A stretch of DNA of 32,000 nt from Desulfocapsa sulfexigens DSM 10523 (GTDB lineage: Bacteria; Desulfobacterota; Desulfobulbia; Desulfobulbales; Desulfocapsaceae), in assembly GCF_000341395.1 (NCBI RefSeq), contig NC_020304.1, positions 270,001-302,000 of the forward strand, read 5' to 3'. Within the stretch, counting starts at the first letter, position 1, and each line of letters begins with the position of its first letter. Below are positions 16,249-27,466 of the stretch, piece by piece. The notes beneath the pieces were generated by a model that ran no database searches, was not told where the DNA came from, and worked only from the letters and a program-made list of their open reading frames with translations. The position numbers were made by a program, and so were the translations under genes.

Positions 16249-16293
16249 TATCTTAGAAAGAAAGCCAATATAAAAGCAATTTATAGAGTATTA

Positions 16294-16983
16294 CTATATT
16301 TTTTCTGTTGGCACTGGTGTTTCAAAGTGCAGATCAGATGGATTTATTCCTGAATTCAGATCATTTCCCAGTTTTTTCCCTAGCTCCTGTGCACTCGCAA
16401 ACTGTTTTCTACTATGTCCATACTTTGGATAATATTTGCGAAACCAGCCTTTACCACGTTCAGGCATCTTTCCGGCAAGTTTCAAAAAGACTCCGATGGT
16501 ATTCCACGGCTCAGACGTTGGATGTTTAAAGACTATGGGATTAACAACAGTTTTTGCTCCGCATTTCCTTAACAGCGAGCGCAGTCCCCAAAAATGAACG
16601 CGCCAATAGCCACGGCACGAGATCATTGGCAGCACTTCCTGATTGGCAAACAACTTTTCACCGTAAAGATCTAAAAATGAGAGGATAATTCCTGAGGGAT
16701 TATAGGACCAGGTTGGCCCTGCAATAATAATCAAATCCCAGTCAATAAAAATTTTTGAATCAACAGGTTGTACTGGATAACGCTTGCGTAAAAAAGTCTG
16801 AAACATCATAAGAACTGTGGCAGGAATTGTACCAATGGGAAAACGTAATTCCTGTACTGGAACCAGTCTCTCCCATGTAACTTCAATTTCACATTTTTCC
16901 AGTCCTCTAATCAGTTTTTTGAGCAGATTCCGTGTCTGATGGCTGTAGGAGTAGGAAACTATGAGTATTCTTTTTTGTGACAC
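16294..16983 (-). CDS. Flavodoxin-fold protein of unknown function
   Basis: The N-terminal KRILIVSYSYSHQTRNL is a flavodoxin-like beta1 loop, and DLIIIAGPTWSYNPS is a second strand-loop. The family assignment is tentative. Confidence 0.4.
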   Translation of the reverse strand: MSQKRILIVSYSYSHQTRNLLKKLIRGLEKCEIEVTWERLVPVQELRFPIGTIPATVLMMFQTFLRKRYPVQPVDSKIFIDWDLIIIAGPTWSYNPSGIILSFLDLYGEKLFANQEVLPMISCRGYWRVHFWGLRSLLRKCGAKTVVNPIVFKHPTSEPWNTIGVFLKLAGKMPERGKGWFRKYYPKYGHSRKQFASAQELGKKLGNDLNSGINPSDLHFETPVPTEKI

Positions 16984-17046
16984 AAGCTATCCTTTAGTAT
17001 CAATTTTCTAACATATTGCCTGCAATCACTATACCGTACAAAAGTG

Positions 17047-17077
17047 CAAAAAAAAAGCCCCCGATTACTCGGGGGCT
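17047..17077 (-). terminator. Rho-independent terminator of the dsrMKJOP operon
   Basis: Read on the minus strand, AGCCCCCG-AGTAAT-CGGGGGCT (17077-17056) is followed by a T9 tract, the complement of A9 at 17048-17056. It lies 32 nt downstream of the dsrP stop. Confidence 0.7.
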
Positions 17078-17108
17078 CGAAAAGCTGTCAAATAAAAGTA
17101 GCTGTTTA

Positions 17109-18278
17109 CTACCCTTCTACTTCATGTTCAACACCAATTGCGATTTTATAGAGAAGGGTAACTACCATAAAACCCGTCGCCCATACACCAATGGTGATTC
17201 CAAGCTCATTGGCTGTGGGAATATACTCGGTGATCTCATGAAGACCATTGGGTACAAAACCGGCAAGGACGAAACCGATGCCCTTATCGAGCCAGAAGGC
17301 GAGGAACAAGGCTGCACAGCCCATCCCAAGAACAAAATCATTCTTTTTAGCCGCCGGGGTAGCAAGCACTGCAATGGATCCAAAGGCCAGTATTACAAAG
17401 GCCCACATGAACGGAACCAGATTATTGTAGACATGACCATGATGCTCAAGACCAAAGAAAAGATACTCAAGCGAGTGCTTGTGACCGGGAATATTGGAAT
17501 AATAACCAACAAAGAATTCAAGACCGACAAAGAACATATTCAGCAGTGCTGCATAAATAATAATGGTTATAAGCTTGTTCATCGCCTTGCGTCCTGCATC
17601 AAATCCTGCAACACGCTTCAGAACAAGACAGGCAACAACGATAAGAGCCGGTCCTGCAGCAAAAGCTGATGCAAGAAAACGGGGTGCAATGATAGCGGAG
17701 AGCCAGAAATGACGTCCTGGCAGACCGCAGTAGAGCATAGCCGTAACCGTATGGATGGAGATAGCAAAGGGGATGGACAGGTAGACAAAGAAATAAATCC
17801 ACTTGGGAGGTTTTACCTGCTTCTTCTCAGCAGTAAGAATAACCCAGCCGCAGAGAACATTCAGGAACAGATACCCGTTTAACACGATTGCATCGTAGAA
17901 AAGCATGGAATTAGGGGTTGGATGGAGAACAACGTTCAAGGCACGCATTGGCTGGCCGAGATCCGCCATGATAAACAGGAGACACATGACGATGGCGCCA
18001 ATCGCCAGGAACTCACCCAAAATCGTAATTCGTCCAAATTCTTTATAATTATGAATATAATAAGGAAGCACCAGCATAACACCTCCAGCCGCAACTCCAA
18101 CCAGGAAGGTAAACTGGGAAATATAGAGCCCCCATGAGACATCACGGCTCATCCCGGTCATGCCCAGACCAAAATTGTACTGTCTGACATAACAGGCAGC
18201 ACCAATAGCCATGAACATTCCTAAAAATGCAAGCCAGATCCAGTAGGCCGGTTTGCCTTTGAGTGTTTTTTCAATCAT
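17109..18278 (-). CDS. dsrP: DsrP, NrfD/PsrC-family integral membrane quinone-interacting subunit
   Basis: 389 aa and about 10 TM helices, with an NrfD-type N-terminus (GKPAYWIWLAFLG...SRDVSWGLYISQFTFLVGVAAG). It occupies the last position of the M-K-J-O-P order. Confidence 0.85.
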   Translation of the reverse strand: MIEKTLKGKPAYWIWLAFLGMFMAIGAACYVRQYNFGLGMTGMSRDVSWGLYISQFTFLVGVAAGGVMLVLPYYIHNYKEFGRITILGEFLAIGAIVMCLLFIMADLGQPMRALNVVLHPTPNSMLFYDAIVLNGYLFLNVLCGWVILTAEKKQVKPPKWIYFFVYLSIPFAISIHTVTAMLYCGLPGRHFWLSAIIAPRFLASAFAAGPALIVVACLVLKRVAGFDAGRKAMNKLITIIIYAALLNMFFVGLEFFVGYYSNIPGHKHSLEYLFFGLEHHGHVYNNLVPFMWAFVILAFGSIAVLATPAAKKNDFVLGMGCAALFLAFWLDKGIGFVLAGFVPNGLHEITEYIPTANELGITIGVWATGFMVVTLLYKIAIGVEHEVEG

Positions 18279-18285
18279 GACTACC

Positions 18286-19119
18286 TCACACTATGTAAAA
18301 GACTGATGGTTTAGTACCCAGCGTTGGCTTTCTCTGGATAGTAAATTCTTTATCAAGTACCGCTCGTATCTCGGACTTGGCATCGTTCAGGTCACCAAAG
18401 ACAATGGCGCCTGTTCCTTTGCAGGCCTCAACACAGGCCGGTTCCTGTCCAAGAGCAAGACGTTCACCACAGAAGTTACATTTTTCAACAACACCCTTCA
18501 TTCGTGACGGGAATTCTTTATTGTACTTCTTTATGTAAGGGCGTGGATCCTGCCAGTTAAATGACCTTGCACCATATGGACAAGCTGCCATACAGAAACG
18601 GCATCCGATGCAACGATGAAAATCCATTGCAACGATTCCGTTTTTTTCAAGCCTGAAGGTAGCCTGAGTTGGACATGCACGAACACATGGTGGATCATCA
18701 CAATGATTACAGAGTGCCACTGAAGGAAAATTTTTCACCTTGGCAGCAGAATGACTTGCAGAGTGATCAGTAAACACATTTTCAAATGGGGCCTTCCATA
18801 TCCATTTTACTTCATTTTTCTTATCAGGAAACTCTGGGATATTGTGCGCTGCTATACAGGCCGCAATGGCACTGTCAAGCATCTCGGGATTCTCATTCAT
18901 CTTGCGAAGATCAATGACCATTCCGAGCCGCACCCCTTGGGGTGCTTCTTCAGCATGACCGCCATGAGCATCAGGTGCAGGTGCATGTGCTGGCGCCTCA
19001 CCGTGTCCTGAAGCAAGTGCGGGAGTAGCAGCTGTCAGCTTTATAACCGCCGGTGCACCTATCCCTGCAAGTACTGACGCACCTGCTATTTTCAGAAATT
19101 TTCTTCTTTTATTATCCAT
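18286..19119 (-). CDS. dsrO: DsrO, periplasmic 4Fe-4S ferredoxin-like subunit (Tat-exported)
   Basis: The ATG at 19119-19117 overlaps the dsrJ stop (TAATG). It gives MDNKRRKFLKIAGASVLAG, a twin-arginine signal. The cluster motifs are CNHCDDPPCVRACP, CIGCRFCMAACP and CNFC...CVEAC. Confidence 0.85.
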   Translation of the reverse strand: MDNKRRKFLKIAGASVLAGIGAPAVIKLTAATPALASGHGEAPAHAPAPDAHGGHAEEAPQGVRLGMVIDLRKMNENPEMLDSAIAACIAAHNIPEFPDKKNEVKWIWKAPFENVFTDHSASHSAAKVKNFPSVALCNHCDDPPCVRACPTQATFRLEKNGIVAMDFHRCIGCRFCMAACPYGARSFNWQDPRPYIKKYNKEFPSRMKGVVEKCNFCGERLALGQEPACVEACKGTGAIVFGDLNDAKSEIRAVLDKEFTIQRKPTLGTKPSVFYIV

Positions 19120-19520
19120 TAGTGCATTGCCTCCTTCGATCCTGCTTCGTTGGGAGTCAGGTGACAATCCCAACAATAGGGGTCTACTGCTGCATAGGTA
19201 TGACAGCTGTCGCAGAATTTTTCTTTTTGACTATGACATGTCATACATGCCATCTGCAAGCCTTTGGGATATTTCTTCCCGTTGATCTCAAGAATCTCAC
19301 GATCTCCATCCCGCAGGACGTTATCACGCCACTCGTTGAGTAGCTGCATATGATTTGCCCGCATATAATCAGCCGGCATGACACACTGTTTCTCTCCACC
19401 TGGTGGCAACTCGGGTTTCGGCAAATCACCCGCCGTGGTCAACCCGTTGAACCAGATTGGAAAGGTCACAAAAAGGACGAATAAAATCAGTCCCGGTATG
19501 ATTGTTCCTTTGTTATACAT
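19119..19520 (-). CDS. dsrJ: DsrJ, membrane-anchored triheme cytochrome c
   Basis: It has an N-terminal TM anchor and three CxxCH motifs (CMTCH, CDSCH, CWDCH) in 133 aa. Confidence 0.85.
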   Translation of the reverse strand: MYNKGTIIPGLILFVLFVTFPIWFNGLTTAGDLPKPELPPGGEKQCVMPADYMRANHMQLLNEWRDNVLRDGDREILEINGKKYPKGLQMACMTCHSQKEKFCDSCHTYAAVDPYCWDCHLTPNEAGSKEAMH

Positions 19521-19546
19521 TTACGTTTCCTCCGTTCCGGTTCCTG

Positions 19547-21208
19547 TTAAACCATGGTCCTGAAGCCATCGGGAAGCTCTGATTCAGTTCCGTCGGCGCC
19601 ATACCCCATGGCTCGTTTCTCGTTATCCATAACCAGTGCATTCCCAACAAGTTCGGAAATACCACAAACACCACAGCCGGGATTCCAGTAATCCATAAGT
19701 GATGAAAGTGTTGCACGGTCGATGGCGCAGACACAGGAGAGCATGTTGACATCATGTTTATCAATCACATGCTTCACAGCATTAGCCCGTGGTAAACCGG
19801 CACGCATCCGAAGCTCCATGATCTCATCGGTATTCAGACCGGTTCCAGAGCCACAGCAGAAGGTCTGCTCGCGGATAGTATTTTCAGGCATTTCAACCCA
19901 TTTGGGAACGACATGATCGAGGATGTAACGCGGCTCATCCATAAGTCCCATTGCTCGCGCCGGGTTGCAGGAATCGTGATAGGTTGGCATCACATGGGCG
20001 TTACGGGTGGGATCGAGCTTGATCTTGCCATGCTTGATCAAATCAGCTGTAAACTCACTAATATGAATCATCTTGGTTGATTTGGCATTGTCAAAGACAG
20101 TCCCGGTCATGGGAGATTTTGGAACCTCCAGGAAATCAGCGGGACCGTTCATGGTATCCATATACTGATGCAGGACACGCCACATATGACCACACTCACC
20201 ACCAATGATGTACTTCACACCGAGACGTTTAGCCTCCGCATACATCTTGGCATTCAGTTTCTTCATCAATTCATTACTGGTGAAGAGCCCGAAGTTACCT
20301 CCTTCAGATGCGTAGGTAGACCAGGTGTAATCAAGGCCAATCTGCTCAAAGAGTGCAAGGTAGCCCATGGCTGTATAGAGGCCGGGTTCAGCAAAAACAT
20401 CAGCCGATGGAGTGATGAAGAGAACCTCAGCACCCTTGCGATTAAAGCTGTGATTAATCTTGACACCGGTAAGGCTTTCAACATCCTCCGCAAGGAAATC
20501 CACGTTGTCTTTAAAGGTGTGGGGCTGGAGTCCCATGTGGTTACCGGTACGGTTGGAGTTGGAAGCAGGTTCCAGGATCCAGTTGATTCCGATACCAACG
20601 AGATGAAGAAGCTCACGAAGCATCATGGTGACTTCAGCGGTATCAATACCGTATGGGCAGAAGACCGAACAGCGTCTACATTCCGTACACTGGTATGAGT
20701 ACATAAACCACTCTTTGAGGACGCCAACCGTCATCTCACGGCCACCCGCCATTTTACCGAAGAGTTTACCAGCCAGGGTAAAGTCATTCCGATAAACGGA
20801 ACGAAGCAGCTCTGCTCGAAGTACGGGCATGTTTTTTGGATCACCGGTACCGAGAAAGAAGTGACATTTATCTGCACAGGCCCCGCAACGCACACAGCAG
20901 TCCATGAAGATTTTAAGAGATCTGAATTTCTCGAGACGTTCGGCAAGCCCCTTGAGGATGATTTCCTGCCAGTTTTCAGGCAATTTCCAGTCATCTTCAT
21001 CCGGAGACCAAATGCGGGCATTTGGAAAGTTCAAATCACTTGAACTGTTTAGATATTCGACCTTTTCCTTTTTCGCAGGGTAGGCAAAATTCCCCTCTTT
21101 AAATATAGCCGGGGTGTCCATCCAGTCTTTGGTTGGTTGTGCTCCTGTTACCAAAGACGGACCCTGCACTACGCTTTTTGATAATTGTTCTAATTTTGCA
21201 AGTGCCAT
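19547..21208 (-). CDS. dsrK: DsrK, HdrD-like cytoplasmic iron-sulfur (CCG-domain) subunit
   Basis: The ferredoxin motifs are CVRCGACADKC and CTECRRCSVFCPYG. The CCG-type motifs are HDSCNPAR and FCCGSGTG. Confidence 0.9.
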   Translation of the reverse strand: MALAKLEQLSKSVVQGPSLVTGAQPTKDWMDTPAIFKEGNFAYPAKKEKVEYLNSSSDLNFPNARIWSPDEDDWKLPENWQEIILKGLAERLEKFRSLKIFMDCCVRCGACADKCHFFLGTGDPKNMPVLRAELLRSVYRNDFTLAGKLFGKMAGGREMTVGVLKEWFMYSYQCTECRRCSVFCPYGIDTAEVTMMLRELLHLVGIGINWILEPASNSNRTGNHMGLQPHTFKDNVDFLAEDVESLTGVKINHSFNRKGAEVLFITPSADVFAEPGLYTAMGYLALFEQIGLDYTWSTYASEGGNFGLFTSNELMKKLNAKMYAEAKRLGVKYIIGGECGHMWRVLHQYMDTMNGPADFLEVPKSPMTGTVFDNAKSTKMIHISEFTADLIKHGKIKLDPTRNAHVMPTYHDSCNPARAMGLMDEPRYILDHVVPKWVEMPENTIREQTFCCGSGTGLNTDEIMELRMRAGLPRANAVKHVIDKHDVNMLSCVCAIDRATLSSLMDYWNPGCGVCGISELVGNALVMDNEKRAMGYGADGTESELPDGFRTMV

Positions 21209-21246
21209 TATTCTATATCCTTATATAATTTGGATCAACAATCCTG

Positions 21247-22278
21247 CTATTCTTCGTCCTTCTTGGGAGGAAGCTCTTTTTCAACAGGGATGCCGGCATC
21301 AACCATGAACTCTCTGAACTCATCCTCGTATCCTGCATAGGAGTGAGGTTTGATTGTAGGATCATTCCATGGATTGATATGACGTTTCATACGACTGTCG
21401 TTTGCCATATTTCTGGTGGGACTCATAAAGACTCCCCCCATATGCATCAGTTTACTGAATGGAAAATATATGAGAAGAACTGAAACCAGAAAGACATGAA
21501 TATAGAAAATGGAACCAATCTGAGCATTAATAACCGGTGACAGGGTCACAAGACCAACCAGCAACTCTTTGATATTTACGATATCAATGTTGGTACGCAG
21601 AAAATAACGCATCAGCATGCCGGTGACGGCGATGGCAAAAATAAGAAAGAGTGGAAAATAGTCATTTGCAAGTGAAATGTAACGTACATTACGATTCACA
21701 AGACGACGGCCAAAAAGAAAAAGAACACCGGCAAGGATTGCCAGATCAGACGCGTAAAGCAGTGGAGCACCGACCTGAAGCATGGCTCCTGCATCCAGGA
21801 AATCCACAAACTGCAACCATTGAGGTACAGGATTCAGGAACAGACGCATATGTCTGATAACGATCACCAGAAAAGAATAGTGGAACAGCAGAGCTGCCAG
21901 CCACAGCCACCTGGATGACTCATAGGTGATTTTCGGCCCCTCGTGGAGTTCGGATTTGGTATTCCGAAACAGAGACCTGAACGCAAAAATTTCCAGGAAC
22001 ATCCTGGCGACAACTTCCGATGTCTTGGTTGGACAGTCCAGCTTATCCTGTTTGATGAAATCCAGAGATTTTCCCTGACCGCAAGTGGTCGGAATGGAAA
22101 ATGGTACCGGCGACTTAGCCCAGTACACAACTCTGTACACAAAACCACCCAGGAAGATCATGATCGCAAGATACGGGATAGCAACACCAAACAGGTATTG
22201 CATCCCAGGTATCATGGATCCCAGCCACGCAAACAGAACCAGCGCTAAGACTGCCAGGAATGAGAAGGCATACTTCAT
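21247..22278 (-). CDS. dsrM: DsrM, NarI-like diheme cytochrome b membrane subunit
   Basis: 343 aa with multiple TM helices and conserved His positions in a NarI-like layout. It is the first gene of the M-K-J-O-P order. Confidence 0.88.
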   Translation of the reverse strand: MKYAFSFLAVLALVLFAWLGSMIPGMQYLFGVAIPYLAIMIFLGGFVYRVVYWAKSPVPFSIPTTCGQGKSLDFIKQDKLDCPTKTSEVVARMFLEIFAFRSLFRNTKSELHEGPKITYESSRWLWLAALLFHYSFLVIVIRHMRLFLNPVPQWLQFVDFLDAGAMLQVGAPLLYASDLAILAGVLFLFGRRLVNRNVRYISLANDYFPLFLIFAIAVTGMLMRYFLRTNIDIVNIKELLVGLVTLSPVINAQIGSIFYIHVFLVSVLLIYFPFSKLMHMGGVFMSPTRNMANDSRMKRHINPWNDPTIKPHSYAGYEDEFREFMVDAGIPVEKELPPKKDEE

Positions 22279-22379
22279 TTCTTCTAACCTCGCTTCAAAT
22301 TGAATTGTATAGGTTTAGCTCCGGCAATATCCCCTGAACCGATGCAAAACCTGTTAATAATACGTGGTAACCCTGTCAA

Positions 22380-22916
22380 TCAGGTAGGAAAACCAACAGG
22401 ATCAACCTTATCTTTGTCCAGCAAGTTCGATGGACACTTGCTGTCGGTAAGAATGATGGTGCCGGTTTTTATCTCTTTAATCCTGACCTTATACAACCGC
22501 TCACGGCATTGCGAGTACAGGTCAAATGCTGCAAGAACTGCAAGATCCACAGCAAATTCAAAATCATAAAGATCTGCAATAAATTGCTTGCGTTCTGAAT
22601 CCTTGGCTAAAACATCTCGGGTAATATGTTTGACGGCATGAATGGGAGCTACAGCCTCGGATGCAGTAAACTCCTGAATAGAGCGAATCCGCATGATTTG
22701 ATCAAGTGGCGCAACAAACTCCTTGGGATCAGCATTTTTTGTGAGCAGCTTGTAGAGTTGCCCTAAAGACTCGCGGGTATTCCCCCCAACGGGGTTGGAA
22801 AATTTATCTGGCCCTTTCTTAAAAAATGTGGACGACTTATAGCTTGACAAGGTGTAGTCAACCCACTGATCAACTATCTTATCTTCGTAATTACGAAATG
22901 CCTCGGCAAGATCCAT
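22380..22916 (-). CDS. Conserved hypothetical protein, possibly RsbRD_N-domain family, immediately upstream of dsrM
   Basis: 178 aa, soluble, with clean coding character. My recollection is that RsbRD N-terminal-domain proteins are annotated next to dsrMKJOP in sulfate reducers. This is unverified here. Confidence 0.5.
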   Translation of the reverse strand: MDLAEAFRNYEDKIVDQWVDYTLSSYKSSTFFKKGPDKFSNPVGGNTRESLGQLYKLLTKNADPKEFVAPLDQIMRIRSIQEFTASEAVAPIHAVKHITRDVLAKDSERKQFIADLYDFEFAVDLAVLAAFDLYSQCRERLYKVRIKEIKTGTIILTDSKCPSNLLDKDKVDPVGFPT

Positions 22917-23134
22917 ATACCCCTAGTCCTGTTTAATGATCAATTAGCACCGGTTAACGCTAAGTAAGCCGGTATAAGTTCCTTCACGAAATTCTTTTCA
23001 AAAAAAACACTAAAAAAAATTCTAAGGCACTAATTGAATGAATGACCATTCATAAGGATCGAGATTTAGCATTTTTTAGTCTGTTAATCAAGAATTTTTT
23101 AAAATTCTATTATTCAAAAAAAACTGATGCTCCC

Positions 23135-25258
23135 TCACATATCATCAAGGATATGGAGCGACTCATTAATATATGGATCTTCTTTGATTTCCTCTTTCCA
23201 TTTATCCTTATCTTTACCATTATCAGGTTGAACGTCGGAAGAATCGCCATGCTCCAAGTCCTGTTCTTCGCGGTACTTCAGATAATGGGCACCGATCTTA
23301 TCGCGGGCAACTTTTGCCTCCAGGCGTTTTTCTTTCATATCGGAGAGTTTTAGAGAAATGGTCGTTTTTTTAACGCGCTCCGAGGCCTTGTCAGCCTCAT
23401 CGGCGATCACCTGCAACCCCTCGTCCTGCTGCACCCGTTTCCTCGATTTCGCCTCCAGCATGGCAAGATCAACTGGGGTTGAGCCATACCTTGCATAGGA
23501 AACAGGCTCTACCTGATCCCAGGGGAGGGAATAATCCAGATACTGTTCCCCGGATTCAAGATGCTGAAAAAGGCTCGGTAAAACAATGTCCGGCTCTACA
23601 CCTTTGTATTGCGTAGAACCGCCATTCACACGATAGAATTTCTGGATGGTTACCTTCAATGCTCCCAGGTCATCGTACTTCTTCAAGTGCAATGTCGGGA
23701 TATTCTCATTCATATTTATAAGTGTCTGAACGGTTCCCTTGCCATGAGTATGTGCCCCGCCAACAATCACTGCCCTTCCATAATCCTGAAGGGCGGCAGC
23801 TAAAATTTCAGAGGCTGAAGCAGAAAATTGATTCACAAGTACAAGCAGGGGACCATCCCAGGCGATGGAAGAATCCTCATCACTAAGCACCCTCTTATTT
23901 CCATAACTGTTCTTAACCAGCACAACAGGCCCTTCCTTGATAAACAAACCAGTGGTATCCACTGCATCCATAAGCGATCCGCCGCCATTATTACGAAGAT
24001 CAAGGATAAGGCCTTTTATTCCCTGCTTCTTCAACTCCTCGATGGCAATCCGGGTATCATCGGTGGAGTTCCTGGCATCGGAAGAACCATCACGGGTTTT
24101 TTCAAAATCACGATAAAAACTCGGAATCATCACATAACCGATTTTGGTTCCCGTGGGACTTTCAATCAAAGTAGACTTCACAAAAGTCTCCTCAATCTGC
24201 ACCACATCCCGAAGAATTGAAATAAATTCTTTATTCCCGTCAAGTTTTTTCACAGTGAGACGAACCTCGGTTCCTTTAGGACCGCGGATGAGACGAACGG
24301 CATCACGCAGGCGCATATCAGTGATTTCCACTGGATCCTTTTCACCCTGCCCCACTTCAAGAATAATATCTTCGGCCTCCAGGCGTCCCTGACGAGCAGA
24401 AGCGGAACCGGGAATAATATTAACTACTTTGATATAACCGTCCTCTTCTCGAAGAAGAGCACCTATTCCTTCCAGACTACCGCGCATGTGAATATCAAAA
24501 TCCTCTTTGTTGGCAGGTGGCATATAATTAGTGTGCGGATCAAATGCCCTGGCAATAGCATTAAAAAAACGGTCATAATGATCCTGCCTGGTCTCCTGGT
24601 GCATACGATTGAAAAAATTCCTGTTTCGCTGAGTAATCTTTTCCTCAGCTTCTGCCCACAGCTCCTTATCACTTTTTTGGGGGCCTTTGTCCTTTCCTTC
24701 CCCAGTTTGCACCTGATCTTCCTTCAGGTCCAGGTAACGGGAAATAATCTGGGCTTTAAGTATCTTCCTCCAACGCTCGGACAGATCGGTAAGGCTGGTT
24801 GCATATTGTAACTTCTCGGGATCAGTTTCATAGCTCTCATCACGGTTATAGTCAAACCCTGCTGCAAGGAGTTCAGTGGCGATTTTTTCTACTTCTACGA
24901 TTCGGGTAGCCAGCACTTCATAGCCGACATCGGGTAGAGTAATATCCCCTTTCACAAGATTGTTATCAATGGCAGGAGCCAGAACAGACAGCTTATCTAC
25001 ATCGGACTGCAGGAGAAAGCGTTTCTGATAATCGAGTTGTTTAAGGTACAGATCAAAGGCAGCAAAGGCCAGTTCATCATTCATAACTTTGTCGCTGAAA
25101 TGCATCACCGGCAACTGCTTACTGATCATAAAACCGATTATTTTATTGCGGGATACATCTGCAACGGGCGAGTCGGAGGACTTCGCAGGGGACACTGCGG
25201 GTAAAAAGAAGCTGATGACCACAATGCAGCCCAGAAATAAACGAAATATTTTTATCAT
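23135..25258 (-). CDS. prc: Carboxy-terminal processing (tail-specific) protease, S41 family
   Basis: It has a signal peptide and a PDZ segment (LEGIGALLREEDGYIKVVNIIPGSASARQGRLEAEDIILEV). The catalytic blocks are LILDLRNNGGGSL and NQFSASASEILAAALQDYGRAVIVG...HGKGTVQ. Confidence 0.9.
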   Translation of the reverse strand: MIKIFRLFLGCIVVISFFLPAVSPAKSSDSPVADVSRNKIIGFMISKQLPVMHFSDKVMNDELAFAAFDLYLKQLDYQKRFLLQSDVDKLSVLAPAIDNNLVKGDITLPDVGYEVLATRIVEVEKIATELLAAGFDYNRDESYETDPEKLQYATSLTDLSERWRKILKAQIISRYLDLKEDQVQTGEGKDKGPQKSDKELWAEAEEKITQRNRNFFNRMHQETRQDHYDRFFNAIARAFDPHTNYMPPANKEDFDIHMRGSLEGIGALLREEDGYIKVVNIIPGSASARQGRLEAEDIILEVGQGEKDPVEITDMRLRDAVRLIRGPKGTEVRLTVKKLDGNKEFISILRDVVQIEETFVKSTLIESPTGTKIGYVMIPSFYRDFEKTRDGSSDARNSTDDTRIAIEELKKQGIKGLILDLRNNGGGSLMDAVDTTGLFIKEGPVVLVKNSYGNKRVLSDEDSSIAWDGPLLVLVNQFSASASEILAAALQDYGRAVIVGGAHTHGKGTVQTLINMNENIPTLHLKKYDDLGALKVTIQKFYRVNGGSTQYKGVEPDIVLPSLFQHLESGEQYLDYSLPWDQVEPVSYARYGSTPVDLAMLEAKSRKRVQQDEGLQVIADEADKASERVKKTTISLKLSDMKEKRLEAKVARDKIGAHYLKYREEQDLEHGDSSDVQPDNGKDKDKWKEEIKEDPYINESLHILDDM

Positions 25259-25469
25259 CTGTTTCTCGATGGAGTAAAAGGAAAAGTCCGTTGCGCTTTA
25301 GTACCTTACAGGGTATTTTTTATTTTTTCCGATAATGCTCTACGTAGAGACTGACTTCGGCTAACTGTTCACCACCGTAAGGTAACGCTCAAATGCTACT
25401 TTAGACTTTATAAAACCAGAAAAACTACCAGAATTCGAGAAGAAATACCAATACAAACACTACAATCCC

Positions 25470-25772
25470 ATGGAAAAATTACGATCTGCCCTTCGGGAAT
25501 TCGCCTCAGCCAGAAAATGGCAACCATTTCACACCCCTAAAAACCTCTGTATGGCTCTGAGCGTGGAGACTGCAGAACTCACCGAAATCTTTCAATGGAT
25601 GGACAGCGAGGAAAGTCGTGTGGTTGACACAACCACCCTCCAACACATTGCGGAAGAAATAGGTGATGTCATGATATACCTTACCATGCTGGCAGACAAA
25701 TTTGACCTGGACCCTCTCAATTGTGCAAAGCAAAAGATACTACTCAATGCGGAAAAATACCCCCATCCATAG
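25470..25772 (+). CDS. MazG-like nucleotide pyrophosphohydrolase (small all-alpha NTP-PPase)
   Basis: FASARKWQPFHTPKNL...ETAELTEIFQW...EEIGDVMIYL is the MazG-type EExxE/D pattern. Confidence 0.8.
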   Translation: MEKLRSALREFASARKWQPFHTPKNLCMALSVETAELTEIFQWMDSEESRVVDTTTLQHIAEEIGDVMIYLTMLADKFDLDPLNCAKQKILLNAEKYPHP

Positions 25773-25851
25773 TGACCTGAGAAAAAAAAGCGGCTTGAAT
25801 TCACAACAAAAACAACAGATCTCATTTTTTTTATGTTTTGCCTATTCCATA

Positions 25852-25860
25852 TGATAGAAT
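25852..25860 (+). promoter_or_regulatory. Candidate extended -10 element (TGATAGAAT) upstream of flp
   Basis: TG-N-TAGAAT lies 46 nt upstream of the flp ATG, after a T-rich tract. There is no good -35. The flp gene has a strong SD, AGGAGG at 25892-25897. Confidence 0.25.
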
Positions 25861-25905
25861 CTCACAAGAATCTGACAGTTTGAAAATCCACAGGAGGAAT
25901 ACCTT

Positions 25906-26169
25906 ATGAAACTGTTCAAAAACCAATCTGGTCAGGGAATGACAGAGTATATTATTATTGTTGCTGTTATCGCTTTAGCAGGCATTGCAGCATTTTCCTA
26001 CTTCGGCAAGACGGTCCGTAATCAGACTGCCGCCATGAGTGAGTCGCTAGCCGGGGACAAGGCGGCAGCTACCACTGCAATCACGGCTGCCGATACCAGT
26101 GCAGGTAAAGCCGCGACAGAAGGAACGACCGATGCAAACCTGAAGGATTATGTAGACCGTCAGGAATAA
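25906..26169 (+). CDS. flp: Flp-family type IVc major pilin
   Basis: 87 aa. MKLFKNQSG|QGMTEYIIIVAVIALAGIAAF carries the Flp G/xxxxEY motif with Glu at +5, followed by a hydrophobic helix. Confidence 0.85.
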   Translation: MKLFKNQSGQGMTEYIIIVAVIALAGIAAFSYFGKTVRNQTAAMSESLAGDKAAATTAITAADTSAGKAATEGTTDANLKDYVDRQE

Positions 26170-26249
26170 TACGGTCACATTCAGGTATCCATGACAGAAC
26201 ACAAACAACCTGGAACACATCGGCAGTACCTCGAGTAGGAAACAAGACA

Positions 26250-27197
26250 ATGATATCCATCAACCAAAAGGGGCAGGCATCTGTTTTTGTGCTTGCTCTT
26301 ATTGGGATCGTTCTTGTTGCCACCATCTTTCTCTATCAATCCGGACGGCTTACCAGCGAAAAAATGCAACTCCAGAATGCTGCTGACGCCGCAGCCTTTG
26401 GAGCCGCTACTCTGGAAGCACGCTCTCTTAATTTTTCTGCTTACACCAATCGGGCCATGGTCGCCAATGAAGTTGCCGTAGGCCAGATGGTCGGCATGCT
26501 CTCCTTTGTTGACGAGCTCAAGACTACGGGCGAATACATAGACGAGTATGCCGGTATTCTGGAGGCTGCAACCGCCTGGCTGTTTGCAATAATTACGGTT
26601 GGTGATGTAATTGAAGGTATTATCAGTGTCATTGTCGAGATCCTGGAGGATATCGGCTCCACAATCACCGAGGTGGGAGAAGAGGCTGAACAGGCCATGG
26701 CGGCAATTGCCTCTCCTGTCATCAGTGGACTCTCCATTATTAATAATGTTTACAGCATCAGCCAGACTGCCTATCACGGTGCAACCATTGTTCTGGTCAC
26801 CACGAATATTTTCCAGAGTCTTGAAGATAATGTTCCAGGCACCACCCCTTTCAATATGATCAACCTCTTTGATCCCGACAAACCCGGTGCTCACCTCTCC
26901 GACCTTGGAGTTCTTGCCCTTGTCGGACACCTCCCCTCTTACTGGCAGGGATACACAAAACGATATACCCCATCGAAACAGAAGAAAAAAAAGGAATCAG
27001 AAGAAGAGAAAGAAAAAGAAAAAGAAGACGAGGAGTTGATATCAAAAGACGAAAGAAAAATAAAAAATGACAGAAAGCGGATTGCCGATGATCAAAAAAC
27101 CTTAGGACAGGATGAGAAAAAGTACAATGCTGCCCTAAAAAAAATAGAGGCTGATAAAAAAAGATTACGGCTGAAAAGAAAAAATGCGATTCGCTGA
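26250..27197 (+). CDS. TadG-like (Tad N-terminal domain) pseudopilin, N-terminal segment that ends in a frameshift
   Basis: NQKG|QASVFVLALIGIVLVATIFLYQSGRLTSEKMQLQNAADAAAFGAA is the TadE/G-like N-terminal pattern. The frame-0 stop at 27195-27197 falls inside a K/E-rich tract. Confidence 0.75.
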   Translation: MISINQKGQASVFVLALIGIVLVATIFLYQSGRLTSEKMQLQNAADAAAFGAATLEARSLNFSAYTNRAMVANEVAVGQMVGMLSFVDELKTTGEYIDEYAGILEAATAWLFAIITVGDVIEGIISVIVEILEDIGSTITEVGEEAEQAMAAIASPVISGLSIINNVYSISQTAYHGATIVLVTTNIFQSLEDNVPGTTPFNMINLFDPDKPGAHLSDLGVLALVGHLPSYWQGYTKRYTPSKQKKKKESEEEKEKEKEDEELISKDERKIKNDRKRIADDQKTLGQDEKKYNAALKKIEADKKRLRLKRKNAIR

Positions 27198-27466
27198 AAC
27201 AGGCCTGGGAAAAAGACAAAACCAAGGAAAACTCAGACAACTATGAAGCCTGTAAACAAAGATTAACTGAAGACAAGCTCACTCTGCAGGAAGACCAGGA
27301 TGCCCTGCAGGCAGTCGAGAAAACCCGGGCAAAACACCAGGAAAAGTTAAAAAAAGATCAAGCAACACTTGCACGCCACCAGAAAGACCTCACCGATGAA
27401 GAAGAAGACGAAGCAGAAGACGAAAAAGAAGAGAAGGAAAATGGGGGAAAAGAAGAAAATGCCGGG
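26976..27466 (+). other. Purine-rich, homopolymer-laden low-complexity coding tract encoding an E/K/D/R-rich segment
   Basis: The tract runs from SKQKKKKESEEEKEKEKEDEE... through ...DEEEDEAEDEKEEKENGGKEENAG. It contains A8 (26985-26992), A8 (27137-27144), A7 (27156-27162), A6 (27179-27184) and A7 (27349-27355). Confidence 0.8.

What the first reader, a model, noticed from the sequence alone, without database searches (positions are those of the whole stretch)
26976..27466. ER/K-type charged helix insertion of about 165 residues inside a Tad pseudopilin
A continuous tract made almost entirely of E, K, D, R, Q, A, L and T lies between the TadG-like N-terminal region and the globular C-terminal region. 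Examples are KQKKKKESEEEKEKEKEDEELISKDERKIKNDRKRIADDQKTLGQDEKKYNAALKKIEADKK... and ...LTEDKLTLQEDQDALQAVEKTRAKHQEKLKKDQATLARHQKDLTDEEEDEAEDEKEEKE.

This composition and the i/i+4 charge alternation are typical of single alpha-helix (ER/K) spacers or coiled coils. Such elements are rigid rods tens of nanometres long. I am not aware of a described minor pilin or TadG family member carrying one.

In a tip-located pseudopilin it could present the C-terminal domain at a distance, acting as an adhesin stalk or ruler. It also creates the homopolymer tracts that make the gene frameshift-prone.
Basis: partly seen in the sequence, partly recalled or inferred. Interest (0 to 1): 0.65.

Follow-up and report, generated by a model that had tools for sequence, protein, structure and literature searches.

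The report
Coiled-coil hairpin inside a Tad pilin
The charged tract is real and belongs to one pilus-tip-type gene, but it most likely folds back on itself as an 11-nm two-helix hairpin rather than a single-helix spacer, and the frameshift that splits the gene here is probably a sequencing error.

Summary
The tract at 26976-27466 exists. It codes for residues 243-406 of one 724-aa TadG-related minor-pilin-like protein in a Tad/Flp pilus locus. The window matches Desulfocapsa sulfexigens DSM 10523.

- **Frameshift.** The gene is split only because an A run at 27156-27162 has 7 bases. Three conspecific assemblies have 8 bases and an intact gene. The reference genome was made by 454 pyrosequencing, so a homopolymer miscall is the likeliest cause.
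- **Insertion.** The tract sits in a loop that is 5-35 aa long in 83 of 122 family members. The long structured form (141-178 aa) occurs in 17 proteins of one Desulfocapsa/Desulfobulbaceae clade.
- **Not an ER/K single helix.** E+K+R is only 45%, and opposite-charge i/i+4 pairs are not enriched.
- **Hairpin evidence.** Each half carries an exact, conserved heptad stripe. AlphaFold2 predicts two 72-73-residue helices joined by a 3-residue turn (pLDDT 83-95). The protein's only two cysteines lie 11 residues either side of that turn.

So it is an antiparallel coiled-coil hairpin of about 11 nm that projects from the pilin body. It cannot hold the C-terminal domain at a distance. Its function, probably a contact arm on the pilus tip, is inferred. 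I rate it a new variant of a known kind, of moderate interest.

The parts
26250..28423 (+). Whole TadG-related large minor-pilin-like gene. It gives 724 aa if the A run at 27156 has 8 bases. Here it is split into a frame-0 part (26250-27197) and a frame-2 part (open from 27158; first ATG at 27467).
   Evidence: Intact 724-aa orthologues P0006, P0127 and P0129 are 99.7-96% identical.
26271..26408 (+). PF13400 'Tad' (TadE/G-like) N-terminal match, residues 8-53, including the hydrophobic alpha1 segment.
   Evidence: E 1.1e-7, 32.5 bits, cut-off 22.3.
26268..26831 (+). Family-wide N-terminal pair of long helices: H7-113 and H118-194.
   Evidence: AlphaFold2 with a 122-sequence alignment, (pLDDT mostly 85-97).
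26967..27475 (+). The variable loop or insert, residues 240-409, between the conserved motifs GYTKRY and (M)AATIREARD. It is 170 aa here, against a family median of 17 aa.
27000..27214 (+). Hairpin arm 1, residues 251-322. The heptad stripe is at residues 264, 271, 278, 285, 292, 299, 306, 313 and 320. This arm contains the frameshift site.
27156..27162 (+). A7 homopolymer. Three conspecific assemblies have A8 here. This is the site of the apparent -1 frameshift.
27185..27187 (+). Cys313 codon (TGC), 11 residues before the centre of the turn.
27215..27223 (+). Predicted turn, residues 323-325 (D-K-T).
27251..27253 (+). Cys335 codon (TGT), 11 residues after the centre of the turn. Cys313 and Cys335 are the only cysteines in the protein.
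27224..27442 (+). Hairpin arm 2, residues 326-398. The heptad stripe is at residues 332, 339, 346, 353, (360), 367, 374 and 381.
27476..28423 (+). C-terminal beta-rich domain, residues 410-724, conserved across the family. It has no Pfam, NCBIfam or PDB relative. The source genome annotates it as a separate 315-aa CDS.
25906..26169 (+). Flp-like pilin gene directly upstream (87 aa).
   Evidence: PF04964, E 0.001, below the cut-off. Synteny.
28420..30471 (+). Three conserved downstream genes (about 315, 237 and 128 aa). They are likely further minor-pilin-like tip components. An RcpC-like gene follows from about 30586.
   Evidence: The gene order is conserved in most of the 46 related loci compared.

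Best explanation
The tract is the coding sequence of a lineage-specific insertion of about 170 residues in a single gene. That gene encodes a 724-aa TadG-related large minor-pilin-like protein in the Tad/Flp pilus locus of Desulfocapsa sulfexigens.

**Shown or strongly supported.**
- The gene is one unit. The split in this window is a one-base shortening of an A8 run to A7.
- The insertion occupies a loop that is short in most family members.
- It has two arms. Each carries an exact, conserved a/d heptad pattern.
- AlphaFold2 predicts two helices of 72-73 residues joined by a 3-residue turn, about 11 nm long. The hairpin is tethered to the body by two low-confidence charged segments.
- The protein's only two cysteines sit symmetrically about the turn, which fits a disulfide staple.

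**Inferred.**
- Both ends of the hairpin emerge at the same point. It therefore projects from the pilin body as a semi-rigid, highly charged arm and does not separate the N- and C-terminal domains.
- TadG-type proteins are modelled as the backbone of the Tad pilus tip complex (PMC12075869). The arm would then enlarge or extend the tip. The variable, Cys-bracketed end would be the likeliest contact site for a surface or a partner.
- The frameshift is most likely a 454 homopolymer undercall, at about 0.6-0.65. The main alternative is a real recent OFF allele at a slippage-prone run.

**Confidence.** The 0.7 applies to the structural and genetic statement. For the 'contact arm' function alone I would give about 0.35.
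For: **One gene**
- P0006 is a 724-aa protein that differs from the repaired window protein at one residue. P0127 and P0129 are also intact.
- L052, L053 and L054 are 98.1-98.3% identical in DNA to the window and have A8 where the window has A7.
- Downstream of the shift there are 15-16 synonymous and 0-1 non-synonymous codon differences.
- The cluster members of 315 aa come from a contig of 3,986,761 bp. That is the chromosome size of D. sulfexigens SB164P1, which was sequenced with 454 GS FLX Titanium at 31x (PMC3739170).
- A second long run (T9, at 25825) is also one base short in the window relative to all three other assemblies.

**Insertion**
- Alignments A1 and A4 give these linker lengths among 122 proteins: 83 at 35 aa or less, 19 at 36-100 aa, and 20 above 100 aa.
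- The hairpin type is close to monophyletic.
- The insert alone finds no donor domain among 1.84 billion representative proteins.

**Hairpin**
- Hydrophobic 3.5-residue periodicity is significant in each half (P < 0.0005 and P = 0.0085) but not across the whole tract, which indicates a phase break.
- The stripe positions are hydrophobic in 12-17 of the 13-17 orthologue residues aligned at 16 of the 17 positions; at residue 360 it is 10 of 17.
- One subgroup carries an indel of exactly 7 residues.
- AlphaFold2 gives pLDDT 85.5 and pTM 0.70 overall, helices H251-322 and H326-398, and insert pLDDT 83-95. The shallow-alignment run gave the same two helices.
- Cys313 and Cys335 are the only cysteines. 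Orthologue inserts have 0, 2 or 4.
- Weak Foldseek matches include antiparallel coiled coils, for example p85 iSH2 at rmsd 2.1 A over 127 columns, and colicin E3.

**Selection on the insert**
- dN is 0.19 in the insert against 0.06-0.07 in the flanks versus L002, and omega is still about 0.09.
Against: - No model coordinates or PAE could be inspected. The antiparallel packing is inferred from the 3-residue turn, the equal arm lengths, the Cys symmetry and the heptads. It was not measured in the model.
- The model has two long helical pairs, so the Foldseek coiled-coil hits cannot be assigned to the insert. None of those hits is significant.
- Most predicted core layers would pair one Leu/Ile with an Asp/Glu, an '[LIV]xxD' heptad. 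That is a sparse core for a free-standing two-helix coiled coil. The arms could instead pack on another protein or on the protein's own N-terminal helices.
- AlphaFold2 tends to give confident long helices for charged sequences.
- The organism lives in sulfidic, reducing conditions, where an extracellular disulfide may not persist.
- Net charge of the insert is not conserved, ranging from -15 to +32. A close relative, P0013, lacks the hairpin altogether. Any function is therefore accessory.
- Tip location and contact function rest on literature models of other TadG/KilN proteins, not on data for this family.
- Whether the frameshift is an error cannot be settled without reads. The three intact assemblies could belong to a sister lineage.
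Confidence: 0.7

Rival explanations
1. ER/K-type single alpha-helix. The tract would be one extended, monomeric charged helix that holds the C-terminal domain some 20 nm or more from the N-terminal region, as a stalk or ruler.
For: The tract has high charge (55-58%) and is predicted fully helical. The two base segments (251-263, EEEKEKEKEDEEL, and 383-398) are E/K/D-only and lack a hydrophobic stripe.
Against: E+K+R is 45%. Oppositely charged pairs at i/i+4 are not enriched (z = -0.1), and the E-to-K orientation is depleted. Heptad seams are conserved on both halves. AlphaFold2 predicts a 3-residue break at the midpoint. The cysteines are symmetric about that break. The insertion site is a 5-20 aa loop in most relatives, and one clade member has a 16-aa loop, so the flanking parts belong together.
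Confidence: 0.06
2. Intrinsically disordered polyampholyte linker. The tract would be low-complexity filler with no fixed structure, expanded by replication slippage and tolerated rather than selected.
For: The same loop was expanded with pure K/E/D low complexity in other lineages: 39-96 aa in 19 proteins, and 157-161 aa in P0070, P0073 and P0074. Triplet and 6-24-nt tandem repeats occur at both ends of the insert. Net charge is not conserved. The insert evolves about 3 times faster than its flanks.
Against: In the Desulfocapsa-type insert the central 120 residues or so are not repetitive. They keep exact heptad positions across 17 orthologues at 18-68% identity. An indel there equals one heptad. 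Cys pairs are kept. AlphaFold2 gives pLDDT 83-95. Conspecific differences are 7 synonymous to 1 non-synonymous.
Confidence: 0.1
3. The frameshift is real in the sequenced strain. Either the gene is a recent pseudogene or split gene, or the A8/A7 run acts as a slipped-strand ON/OFF switch for the tip protein. A little full-length product might be restored by ribosomal -1 or transcriptional slippage on the A run.
For: The run length differs between the reference and three other assemblies. The insert is full of A runs. A -1 slip on AAA-AAA-A would give exactly the intact protein sequence (reading of the sequence). Two further homopolymers just upstream of the flp gene also vary.
Against: The reference was assembled from 454 reads, which are prone to homopolymer length errors. 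Only that assembly shows the OFF length. The downstream frame has no excess of non-synonymous change. No relative conserves a frameshift, so programmed frameshifting is not supported. There is no plausible ribosome-binding site or promoter for a separate C-terminal gene (sequence upstream of 27467).
Confidence: 0.3
4. The two arms are not a self-contained hairpin. They would be an interaction module that packs onto other helices to form a four-helix bundle. The partners could be the protein's own 107- and 77-residue N-terminal helices, the neighbouring minor-pilin-like proteins, or a second copy.
For: Only one clearly hydrophobic position per heptad is present, with Asp/Glu at many 'd' positions. 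That is weak for a two-helix core. Long helices already exist in the N-terminal region of every family member. TadG/KilN proteins are modelled as interwoven with TadE/F-type partners (PMC12075869).
Against: Short-loop relatives have the same N-terminal helices without needing a cover. The hairpin is extremely polar apart from its seam. The Cys symmetry points to arm-to-arm pairing.
Confidence: 0.15

Closest known systems
TadG / KilN large minor pilins of Tad pilus tip complexes (Herrou et al. 2025, PMC12075869)
   Same: Both have an N-terminal TadE/G-like hydrophobic helix. Both are large proteins encoded next to other minor-pilin-like genes in a tad locus. Both have long alpha-helices plus a beta-rich variable C-terminal module. 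[quoted passage not shown]
   Different: No sequence relationship beyond PF13400 was shown here. The paper does not describe an extra charged coiled-coil hairpin inserted in a loop. The two long helices it mentions may correspond to the family-wide N-terminal pair H7-113/H118-194, not to this insert; I did not compare the structures. Many classical TadG proteins carry a vWA domain (from memory); none was detected here.
GspK, the tip pseudopilin of type II secretion, with an all-alpha domain inserted in the pilin fold (from memory: Korotkov and Hol 2008)
   Same: A large minor (pseudo)pilin at the filament tip whose pilin body is interrupted by an inserted helical module that enlarges the tip.
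   Different: The GspK insert is a compact helical domain of about 110 residues, not a two-helix rod of about 11 nm. The families are unrelated, and no similarity was detected.
Long antiparallel coiled-coil hairpins such as the colicin E3 receptor-binding domain and the p85 iSH2 domain
   Same: Two long helices are joined by a tight turn to form a rod of about 10 nm. In colicins the tip of the hairpin is the binding site. These were among the weak Foldseek matches.
   Different: The matches are not significant (best E 0.024) and cannot be assigned to the insert. There is no sequence similarity. The core here is unusually polar, with an '[LIV]xxD' heptad.
ER/K single alpha-helix (SAH) domains, for example in myosin VI/X and caldesmon (from memory)
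   Same: A highly charged, helical, rod-like element used as a spacer.
   Different: The defining composition, the i/i+4 salt-bridge pattern and the absence of a hydrophobic seam were all tested and not met.
Homopolymer-switched pilus tip proteins, for example Neisseria pilC with a poly-G tract (from memory)
   Same: A homopolymer inside the coding region of a pilus-tip-associated gene, with the run length deciding whether the frame is intact.
   Different: Only one assembly, made from 454 reads, shows the OFF length. No population heterogeneity is documented. A8 is a short tract for efficient switching.

Membership tests
TadE/G-like (PF13400 'Tad') minor-pilin-like proteins | N-terminal PF13400 match above the gathering score | tested here: met
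   residues 8-53, 32.5 bits against a cut-off of 22.3, E 1.1e-7. PF13400 is also precomputed for nearly all homologues.
TadE/G-like (PF13400 'Tad') minor-pilin-like proteins | Encoded in a tad locus with Flp pilin, RcpC, secretin RcpA, TadA ATPase and TadB/C | tested here: met
   Flp-like gene, this gene, three small genes, RcpC (PF16976), Secretin, FHA-T2SSE ATPase, two T2SSF genes. The order is conserved in most of the 46 related loci compared.
TadE/G-like (PF13400 'Tad') minor-pilin-like proteins | Prepilin-peptidase site (Gly followed by a hydrophobic helix with Glu at +5) | tested here: inconclusive
   The sequence reads KG/QASVFVLALIG. A conserved (K/R)GQ(A/S) motif is present, but position +5 is Phe, not Glu. 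Processing cannot be judged from sequence.
Classical TadG (Aggregatibacter/Pseudomonas type) | C-terminal vWA-type domain (feature recalled from memory for many TadG proteins) | tested here: not met
   No vWA or other Pfam domain at E <= 0.01 apart from PF13400. No NCBIfam equivalog. No PDB sequence relative.
Classical TadG (Aggregatibacter/Pseudomonas type) | Location at the pilus tip as backbone of a minor-pilin complex | not testable with these tools
   This rests on AlphaFold models and genetics for other TadG/KilN proteins (PMC12075869).
ER/K single alpha-helix (SAH) | Very high E+K+R content (roughly 70-80% or more; threshold from memory) | tested here: not met
   E+K+R is 45%, D 11% and hydrophobic residues 12% over the 170-aa linker.
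ER/K single alpha-helix (SAH) | Enrichment of E(i) to K/R(i+4) pairs | tested here: not met
   25 opposite-charge pairs at spacing 4, against 25.4 +/- 3.9 in 2000 shuffles. E-to-K/R pairs number 7 and K/R-to-E pairs 18.
ER/K single alpha-helix (SAH) | No hydrophobic heptad seam | tested here: not met
   There are exact 7-residue stripes, 264 to 320 and 332 to 381, conserved in 17 orthologues.
Antiparallel two-helix coiled-coil hairpin | Heptad periodicity of hydrophobic residues in both arms, with a phase break between them | tested here: met
   power at period 3.5 gives P < 0.0005 and P = 0.0085 for the halves, and P = 0.43 for the whole tract.
Antiparallel two-helix coiled-coil hairpin | Two helices of similar length joined by a short turn | tested here: met
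   AlphaFold2 gives H251-322 and H326-398 with a turn at 323-325 and pLDDT 83-95. A 6-sequence alignment gave the same result. This is a prediction, not an experiment.
Antiparallel two-helix coiled-coil hairpin | Residues equidistant from the turn are in contact | tested here: inconclusive
   Cys313 and Cys335 are the only cysteines and are symmetric about residue 324. Orthologue inserts have 0, 2 or 4 Cys in nested spacing. No coordinates, PAE or experiment were available.
Programmed -1 ribosomal frameshift gene | The frameshift and slippery site are conserved in relatives | tested here: not met
   Of the 45 related loci checked, 43 (including all 15 closest) carry one ORF across the whole matched stretch; the two exceptions are distant relatives. 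The proteins are also single products, and conspecifics have A8 in frame.
Phase-variable (simple-repeat contingency) gene | Both ON and OFF repeat lengths occur within populations of one strain | not testable with these tools
   Only between-assembly data exist: A7 in the 454 reference and A8 in three others. No reads are available.

The most novel reading that the evidence does not exclude
The hairpin would be a disulfide-stapled reach-extending arm of about 11 nm on the Tad pilus tip of sulfur-disproportionating Desulfocapsa and relatives. Its Cys-bracketed variable end and conserved acidic ladder would bind a surface, a cation-coated mineral or sulfur particle, or a partner cell. The A8 run inside it would be a genuine slipped-strand ON/OFF switch for the tip protein.
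Probability: 0.1. Interest if true: 0.6.

Novelty: new variant of a known kind. Interest (0 to 1): 0.36.

Why it matters
- **Annotation.** Two CDSs in the reference genome of D. sulfexigens DSM 10523 are almost certainly one 724-aa gene. Three conspecific assemblies have it intact.
- **A family without a name or structure.** This TadG-related family is widespread in Thermodesulfobacteriota and Gammaproteobacteria. It has conserved synteny, no solved structure and no curated family model. One surface loop in it is a hotspot for charged expansions.
- **Evolution of a fold.** In one clade the loop expansion has become an ordered coiled-coil hairpin with no detectable donor. This may be a case of a structured module arising within a linker.
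- **Pilus biology.** If TadG-type proteins form the Tad pilus tip, as recent work proposes, an 11-nm arm is a new kind of tip decoration. It could bear on how these sediment bacteria contact solids or each other.
- **Limits.** None of this overturns current models. A close relative lacks the arm, so it appears to be accessory.

Tried and rejected
The run with 6 sequences gave a poor overall model, pLDDT 46. I therefore ran a profile search to collect usable homologues and repeated the prediction with 122 sequences.
- **Co-variation of hairpin length with RcpC length.** RcpC is 726 aa here and 573 aa in a short-loop locus, which suggested a link. Across the 39 of 46 loci where an RcpC homologue was found, RcpC ranges from 311 to 744 aa with no relation to linker length. 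Rejected.
- **Donor domain for the insert.** A phmmer search of the insert against 1.84 billion representatives gave one family member, one polyubiquitin artefact and one Gram-positive surface protein with similar [VIL]xxDQxx heptads at E 3.9e-4. That protein has no Pfam family. The idea of a PrgA-like stalk relationship is only a lead from memory and is not supported.
- **PDB searches.** Sequence searches with the family profile and with the insert found nothing meaningful. Foldseek against the PDB found nothing at E <= 0.001.
- **Internal promoter, terminator or ribosome-binding site** that would make the C-terminal part an independent gene: none found on the + strand.
- **Conserved electrostatics of the hairpin.** Net charge ranges from -15 to +32 among orthologues. 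Rejected.
- **Programmed frameshifting.** Rejected because no relative conserves the shift.
- **Antisense ORFs** at 26860-27240 and 27347-27640 are poly-F/L/S translations of the K/E tract and are artefacts.
- **dS against L002** is saturated (1.1-2.2), so the omega values are rough. The conspecific synonymous and non-synonymous counts are the better evidence.
Full report
**1. What is in the sequence**

Window 26250-27197 (+) is a 315-aa ORF. Its N-terminus matches Pfam PF13400, 'Putative Flp pilus-assembly TadE/G-like' (residues 8-53, 32.5 bits, cut-off 22.3). It ends inside a K/E/D-rich tract.

A second open stretch, in the frame one base back, opens at 27158 and runs to 28423. Its first ATG is at 27467. 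The two frames overlap only between 27158 and 27197.

Adding one A to the A7 run at 27156-27162 gives a single 724-aa protein. The finding's coordinates, 26976-27466, correspond to residues 243-406.

The 156-aa core of the tract is K37, E29, D18, A13, Q11, L11, T8 and R6, which is 58% charged. The region is 49.5% A. Only 0.6% of shuffles stay open with one frame change or fewer, and only 0.04% stay open with none. The tract as described is therefore there, and it is coding.

**2. One gene, not two, and probably not a real frameshift**

The first homology search with the C-terminal ORF found only five proteins. The full-length ones (538-553 aa) run straight from the Tad N-terminus to the C-terminal domain.

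A scan of species-representative genomes returned 50 loci. In 43 of the 45 loci checked, including all 15 closest, the gene is a single ORF; the two exceptions are distant relatives. The nearest is Desulfocapsa sp. MC-05 at 81-83% identity and 733 aa.

A DNA alignment with that locus places the window's missing base in or next to the A7 run.

A profile search then found P0006, a 724-aa protein from a JGI metagenome. It differs from my repaired protein at a single residue, K290Q. Its contig, L052, is 98.3% identical to window 16252-32000. Inside the gene it differs by 19 synonymous and 1 non-synonymous codon changes, plus A8 in place of A7.

Two further conspecific assemblies also have A8: an NCBI MAG (GCA_975001335.1) and a Logan assembly. 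They show 22 synonymous and 2 non-synonymous differences. Downstream of the shift the counts are 15-16 synonymous against 0-1 non-synonymous. The 'out-of-frame' part has therefore evolved as coding sequence in its own frame.

The same protein cluster holds two 315-aa NCBI proteins, the N and C halves, from a contig of 3,986,761 bp. That is the published chromosome size of Desulfocapsa sulfexigens SB164P1 (DSM 10523). That genome was sequenced with 454 GS FLX Titanium at 31x plus Sanger fosmid ends (PMC3739170). Pyrosequencing is known (established knowledge) to miscount long homopolymers.

In the 8.2 kb (L053) and 5.7 kb (L054) that these two assemblies share with the window, the only indels are at three homopolymer sites. 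At two of those (T9 and A8) the reference is one base short of all three assemblies, L052 included.

I put a sequencing undercall at about 0.6-0.65 and a genuine recent or switchable allele at about 0.3. Programmed frameshifting is not supported, because no relative conserves a shift. No + strand promoter-like or terminator-like site lies in the tract, and there is no good Shine-Dalgarno sequence before 27467.

**3. The tract is an insertion at a hotspot loop**

All family members share the motifs ...GYTKRY and (G)MxRxAAT(I/V)RxARDPF(S/T)S on either side of the tract.

Among 122 family proteins, the linker between these motifs has a median length of 17 aa:

| Linker length | Proteins | Character |
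|---|---|---|
| 35 aa or less | 83 | short loop |
| 36-100 aa | 19 | almost pure K/E/D low complexity, e.g. KKKKEEEKKKK |
| more than 100 aa | 20 | 3 low-complexity without Cys (157-161 aa, ~11-residue repeats); 17 of the window's type (141-178 aa) |

On a neighbour-joining tree built without the linker columns, those 17 proteins form one terminal group. Its sister sequences have 13-aa linkers. One nested member, P0013, has a 16-aa loop, TPSDQGTGAENEGMQR, that keeps both ends of the insert but lacks the middle.

The insert alone finds no homologue outside the family among 1.84 billion representative proteins. It looks home-grown rather than captured. Short tandem repeats (AGA/GAA triplets and 6-24-nt units) are confined to its two ends.

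Against L002 the insert has a dN of 0.19, compared with 0.06-0.07 in the flanks. It is thus faster-evolving but still constrained. dS is saturated, so the ratio is rough.

**4. Single helix or hairpin**

The ER/K single-helix reading fails its own criteria:
- E+K+R is 45%.
- Opposite-charge pairs at i/i+4 are at the shuffle expectation (z = -0.1).
- The stabilising E-to-K/R order is the minority, 7 against 18.

Hydrophobic residues instead show 3.5-residue periodicity within each half (P < 0.0005 and P = 0.0085). Over the whole tract they do not (P = 0.43), so there are two heptad segments out of phase.

In the alignment of the 17 orthologues, two sets of positions are hydrophobic in 12-17 of the sequences aligned at each position: 264, 271, 278, 285, 292, 299, 306, 313, 320 in one arm, and 332, 339, 346, 353, 367, 374, 381 in the other. 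Residue 360, which completes the second stripe, is hydrophobic in 10 of 17. Overall identity among these proteins falls as low as 18%. One subgroup differs by a gap of exactly seven residues.

AlphaFold2 with the 122-sequence alignment gives a usable model, with mean pLDDT 85.5 and pTM 0.70. The insert is two helices, 251-322 and 326-398, joined by D-K-T at 323-325. Block pLDDT is 83-95, with dips to 58 and 53 at the two tethers, 240-250 and 390-400. The 6-sequence run had already given the same two helices.

At 0.15 nm per residue each arm is about 11 nm long.

The protein's only cysteines, C313 and C335, lie 11 residues on either side of the centre of the turn. Orthologue inserts carry 0, 2 or 4 cysteines, and the four-Cys versions have nested spacing of 7/11/6.

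Foldseek found nothing significant in the PDB. The weak hits include antiparallel coiled coils: p85 iSH2 at rmsd 2.1 A over 127 columns, colicin E3 and tektins.

I could not inspect coordinates or PAE. The antiparallel packing is therefore an inference from several independent features, not a measurement.

**5. Consequence for mechanism**

- The loop is short in most relatives and absent in one clade member, so the parts on either side belong together.
- The hairpin starts and ends at the same point, so it must project from the body. It cannot space the C-terminal domain away from the N-terminal region. The 'stalk or ruler between domains' idea is therefore not supported.
- The locus is a Tad system: an Flp-like pilin, this gene, three small conserved genes, RcpC, secretin, an FHA-TadA ATPase and TadB/C.
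- Recent work models TadG/KilN proteins as the backbone of a minor-pilin tip complex with variable exposed modules (PMC12075869). TadG is also listed as a tip or minor-pilin-like protein in a 2026 preprint.
- By inference the hairpin is an accessory, flexibly tethered, semi-rigid arm on that tip. Its Cys-bracketed, variable end is the most likely contact site.
- This functional step is not shown. Net charge is not conserved, ranging from -15 to +32. RcpC length does not co-vary with the insert.

**6. Unexplained**

Many 'd' positions of the heptads are Asp or Glu: 16 of 17 at residue 274, 14 of 17 at 370, and 15 of 17 at 384, against a background of 0.21. Most core layers would then pair one Leu/Ile with an acidic residue.

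This is a thin core for a free two-helix coiled coil. It leaves three possibilities open: packing on another partner, cation binding, or conditional opening.

**7. Comparison and novelty**

The protein meets the PF13400 and tad-locus criteria for a TadG-related protein. It has no vWA domain or other known domain, no NCBIfam model and no PDB relative.

I found no paper describing a coiled-coil insert in a TadG-type protein. A full-text search for 'TadG' with 'coiled-coil' gave no relevant bacterial hit.

The nearest concepts are:
- the modular 'adaptable tips' of Tad pili;
- the helical insertion in the T2SS tip pseudopilin GspK (from memory);
- long helical-hairpin receptor-binding domains such as that of colicin E3.

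I class it as a new variant of a known kind.

**8. Verdict**

The i/i+4 detail is not supported.
The tract is helical, rod-like, an insertion and frameshift-prone. It is wrong on the SAH type and on the spacer role.
- The feature is conserved in a clade rather than unique.
- The frameshift is most likely an artefact of the reference assembly.
- Interest is moderate, at 0.36.

Noticed in passing
window 25782-25789 and 25825-25832: Two intergenic homopolymers (A8, T8) lie 75-125 nt upstream of the flp-like pilin gene. Their lengths differ from three conspecific assemblies (T9 in all three; A7, or T plus A8). With 27156, these are the only internal indels in the overlaps. They are either 454 miscounts or natural length variation in the pilin promoter region.
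   Followed up: partly
This looks like an annotation consequence of the one-base discrepancy.
   Followed up: yes
window 17109-22278 (- strand): An operon of a NrfD-type membrane protein, a 4Fe-4S protein, a 133-aa protein, a 553-aa Fer4/CCG protein and a nitrate-reductase-gamma-like protein. This layout resembles DsrMKJOP (my reading, from memory) and would fit a sulfur-metabolising organism.
   Followed up: no
window about 30586-32000 (runs off the end): The RcpC-like gene is internally repetitive. The L002 orthologue matches window 31408-31998 in several registers at 30-34% identity. Its length varies from 311 to 744 aa across related loci, unrelated to the TadG loop length.
   Followed up: partly
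related proteins P0021, P0025, P0050, P0062, P0070, P0073, P0074 and others: Other lineages of the same family expanded the same loop with nearly pure K/E/D low complexity. The expansions are 39-96 aa, and 157-161 aa with ~11-residue 'QKKDDLKKEEQ' repeats, all without cysteines. These are better candidates for SAH-like or disordered linkers than the window's insert.
   Followed up: partly
related protein P0013 (578 aa): A 66%-identical relative nested within the hairpin clade has a 16-aa loop, TPSDQGTGAENEGMQR. The loop keeps both ends of the insert but lacks the hairpin. It is a natural hairpin-less variant.
   Followed up: partly
window 26268-26831 (residues 7-194): All family members are predicted to have an unusually long alpha1 helix (107 residues) and a 77-residue return helix before the beta-rich domain. 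This is a long helical pair independent of the insert.
   Followed up: no
hairpin arms, residues 264-385 (window 27039-27403): There is a conserved '[LIV]xxD' heptad. The i+3 core position is Asp/Glu in up to 16 of 17 orthologues. A Gram-positive surface protein (P0132) shows similar [VIL]xxDQxx heptads at E 3.9e-4. The meaning is unknown.
   Followed up: partly
window 26860-27240 (-) and 27347-27640 (-): Antisense ORFs of 126 and 97 aa overlap the tract. They translate to poly-F/L/S strings and are by-products of the A-rich coding strand.
   Followed up: yes
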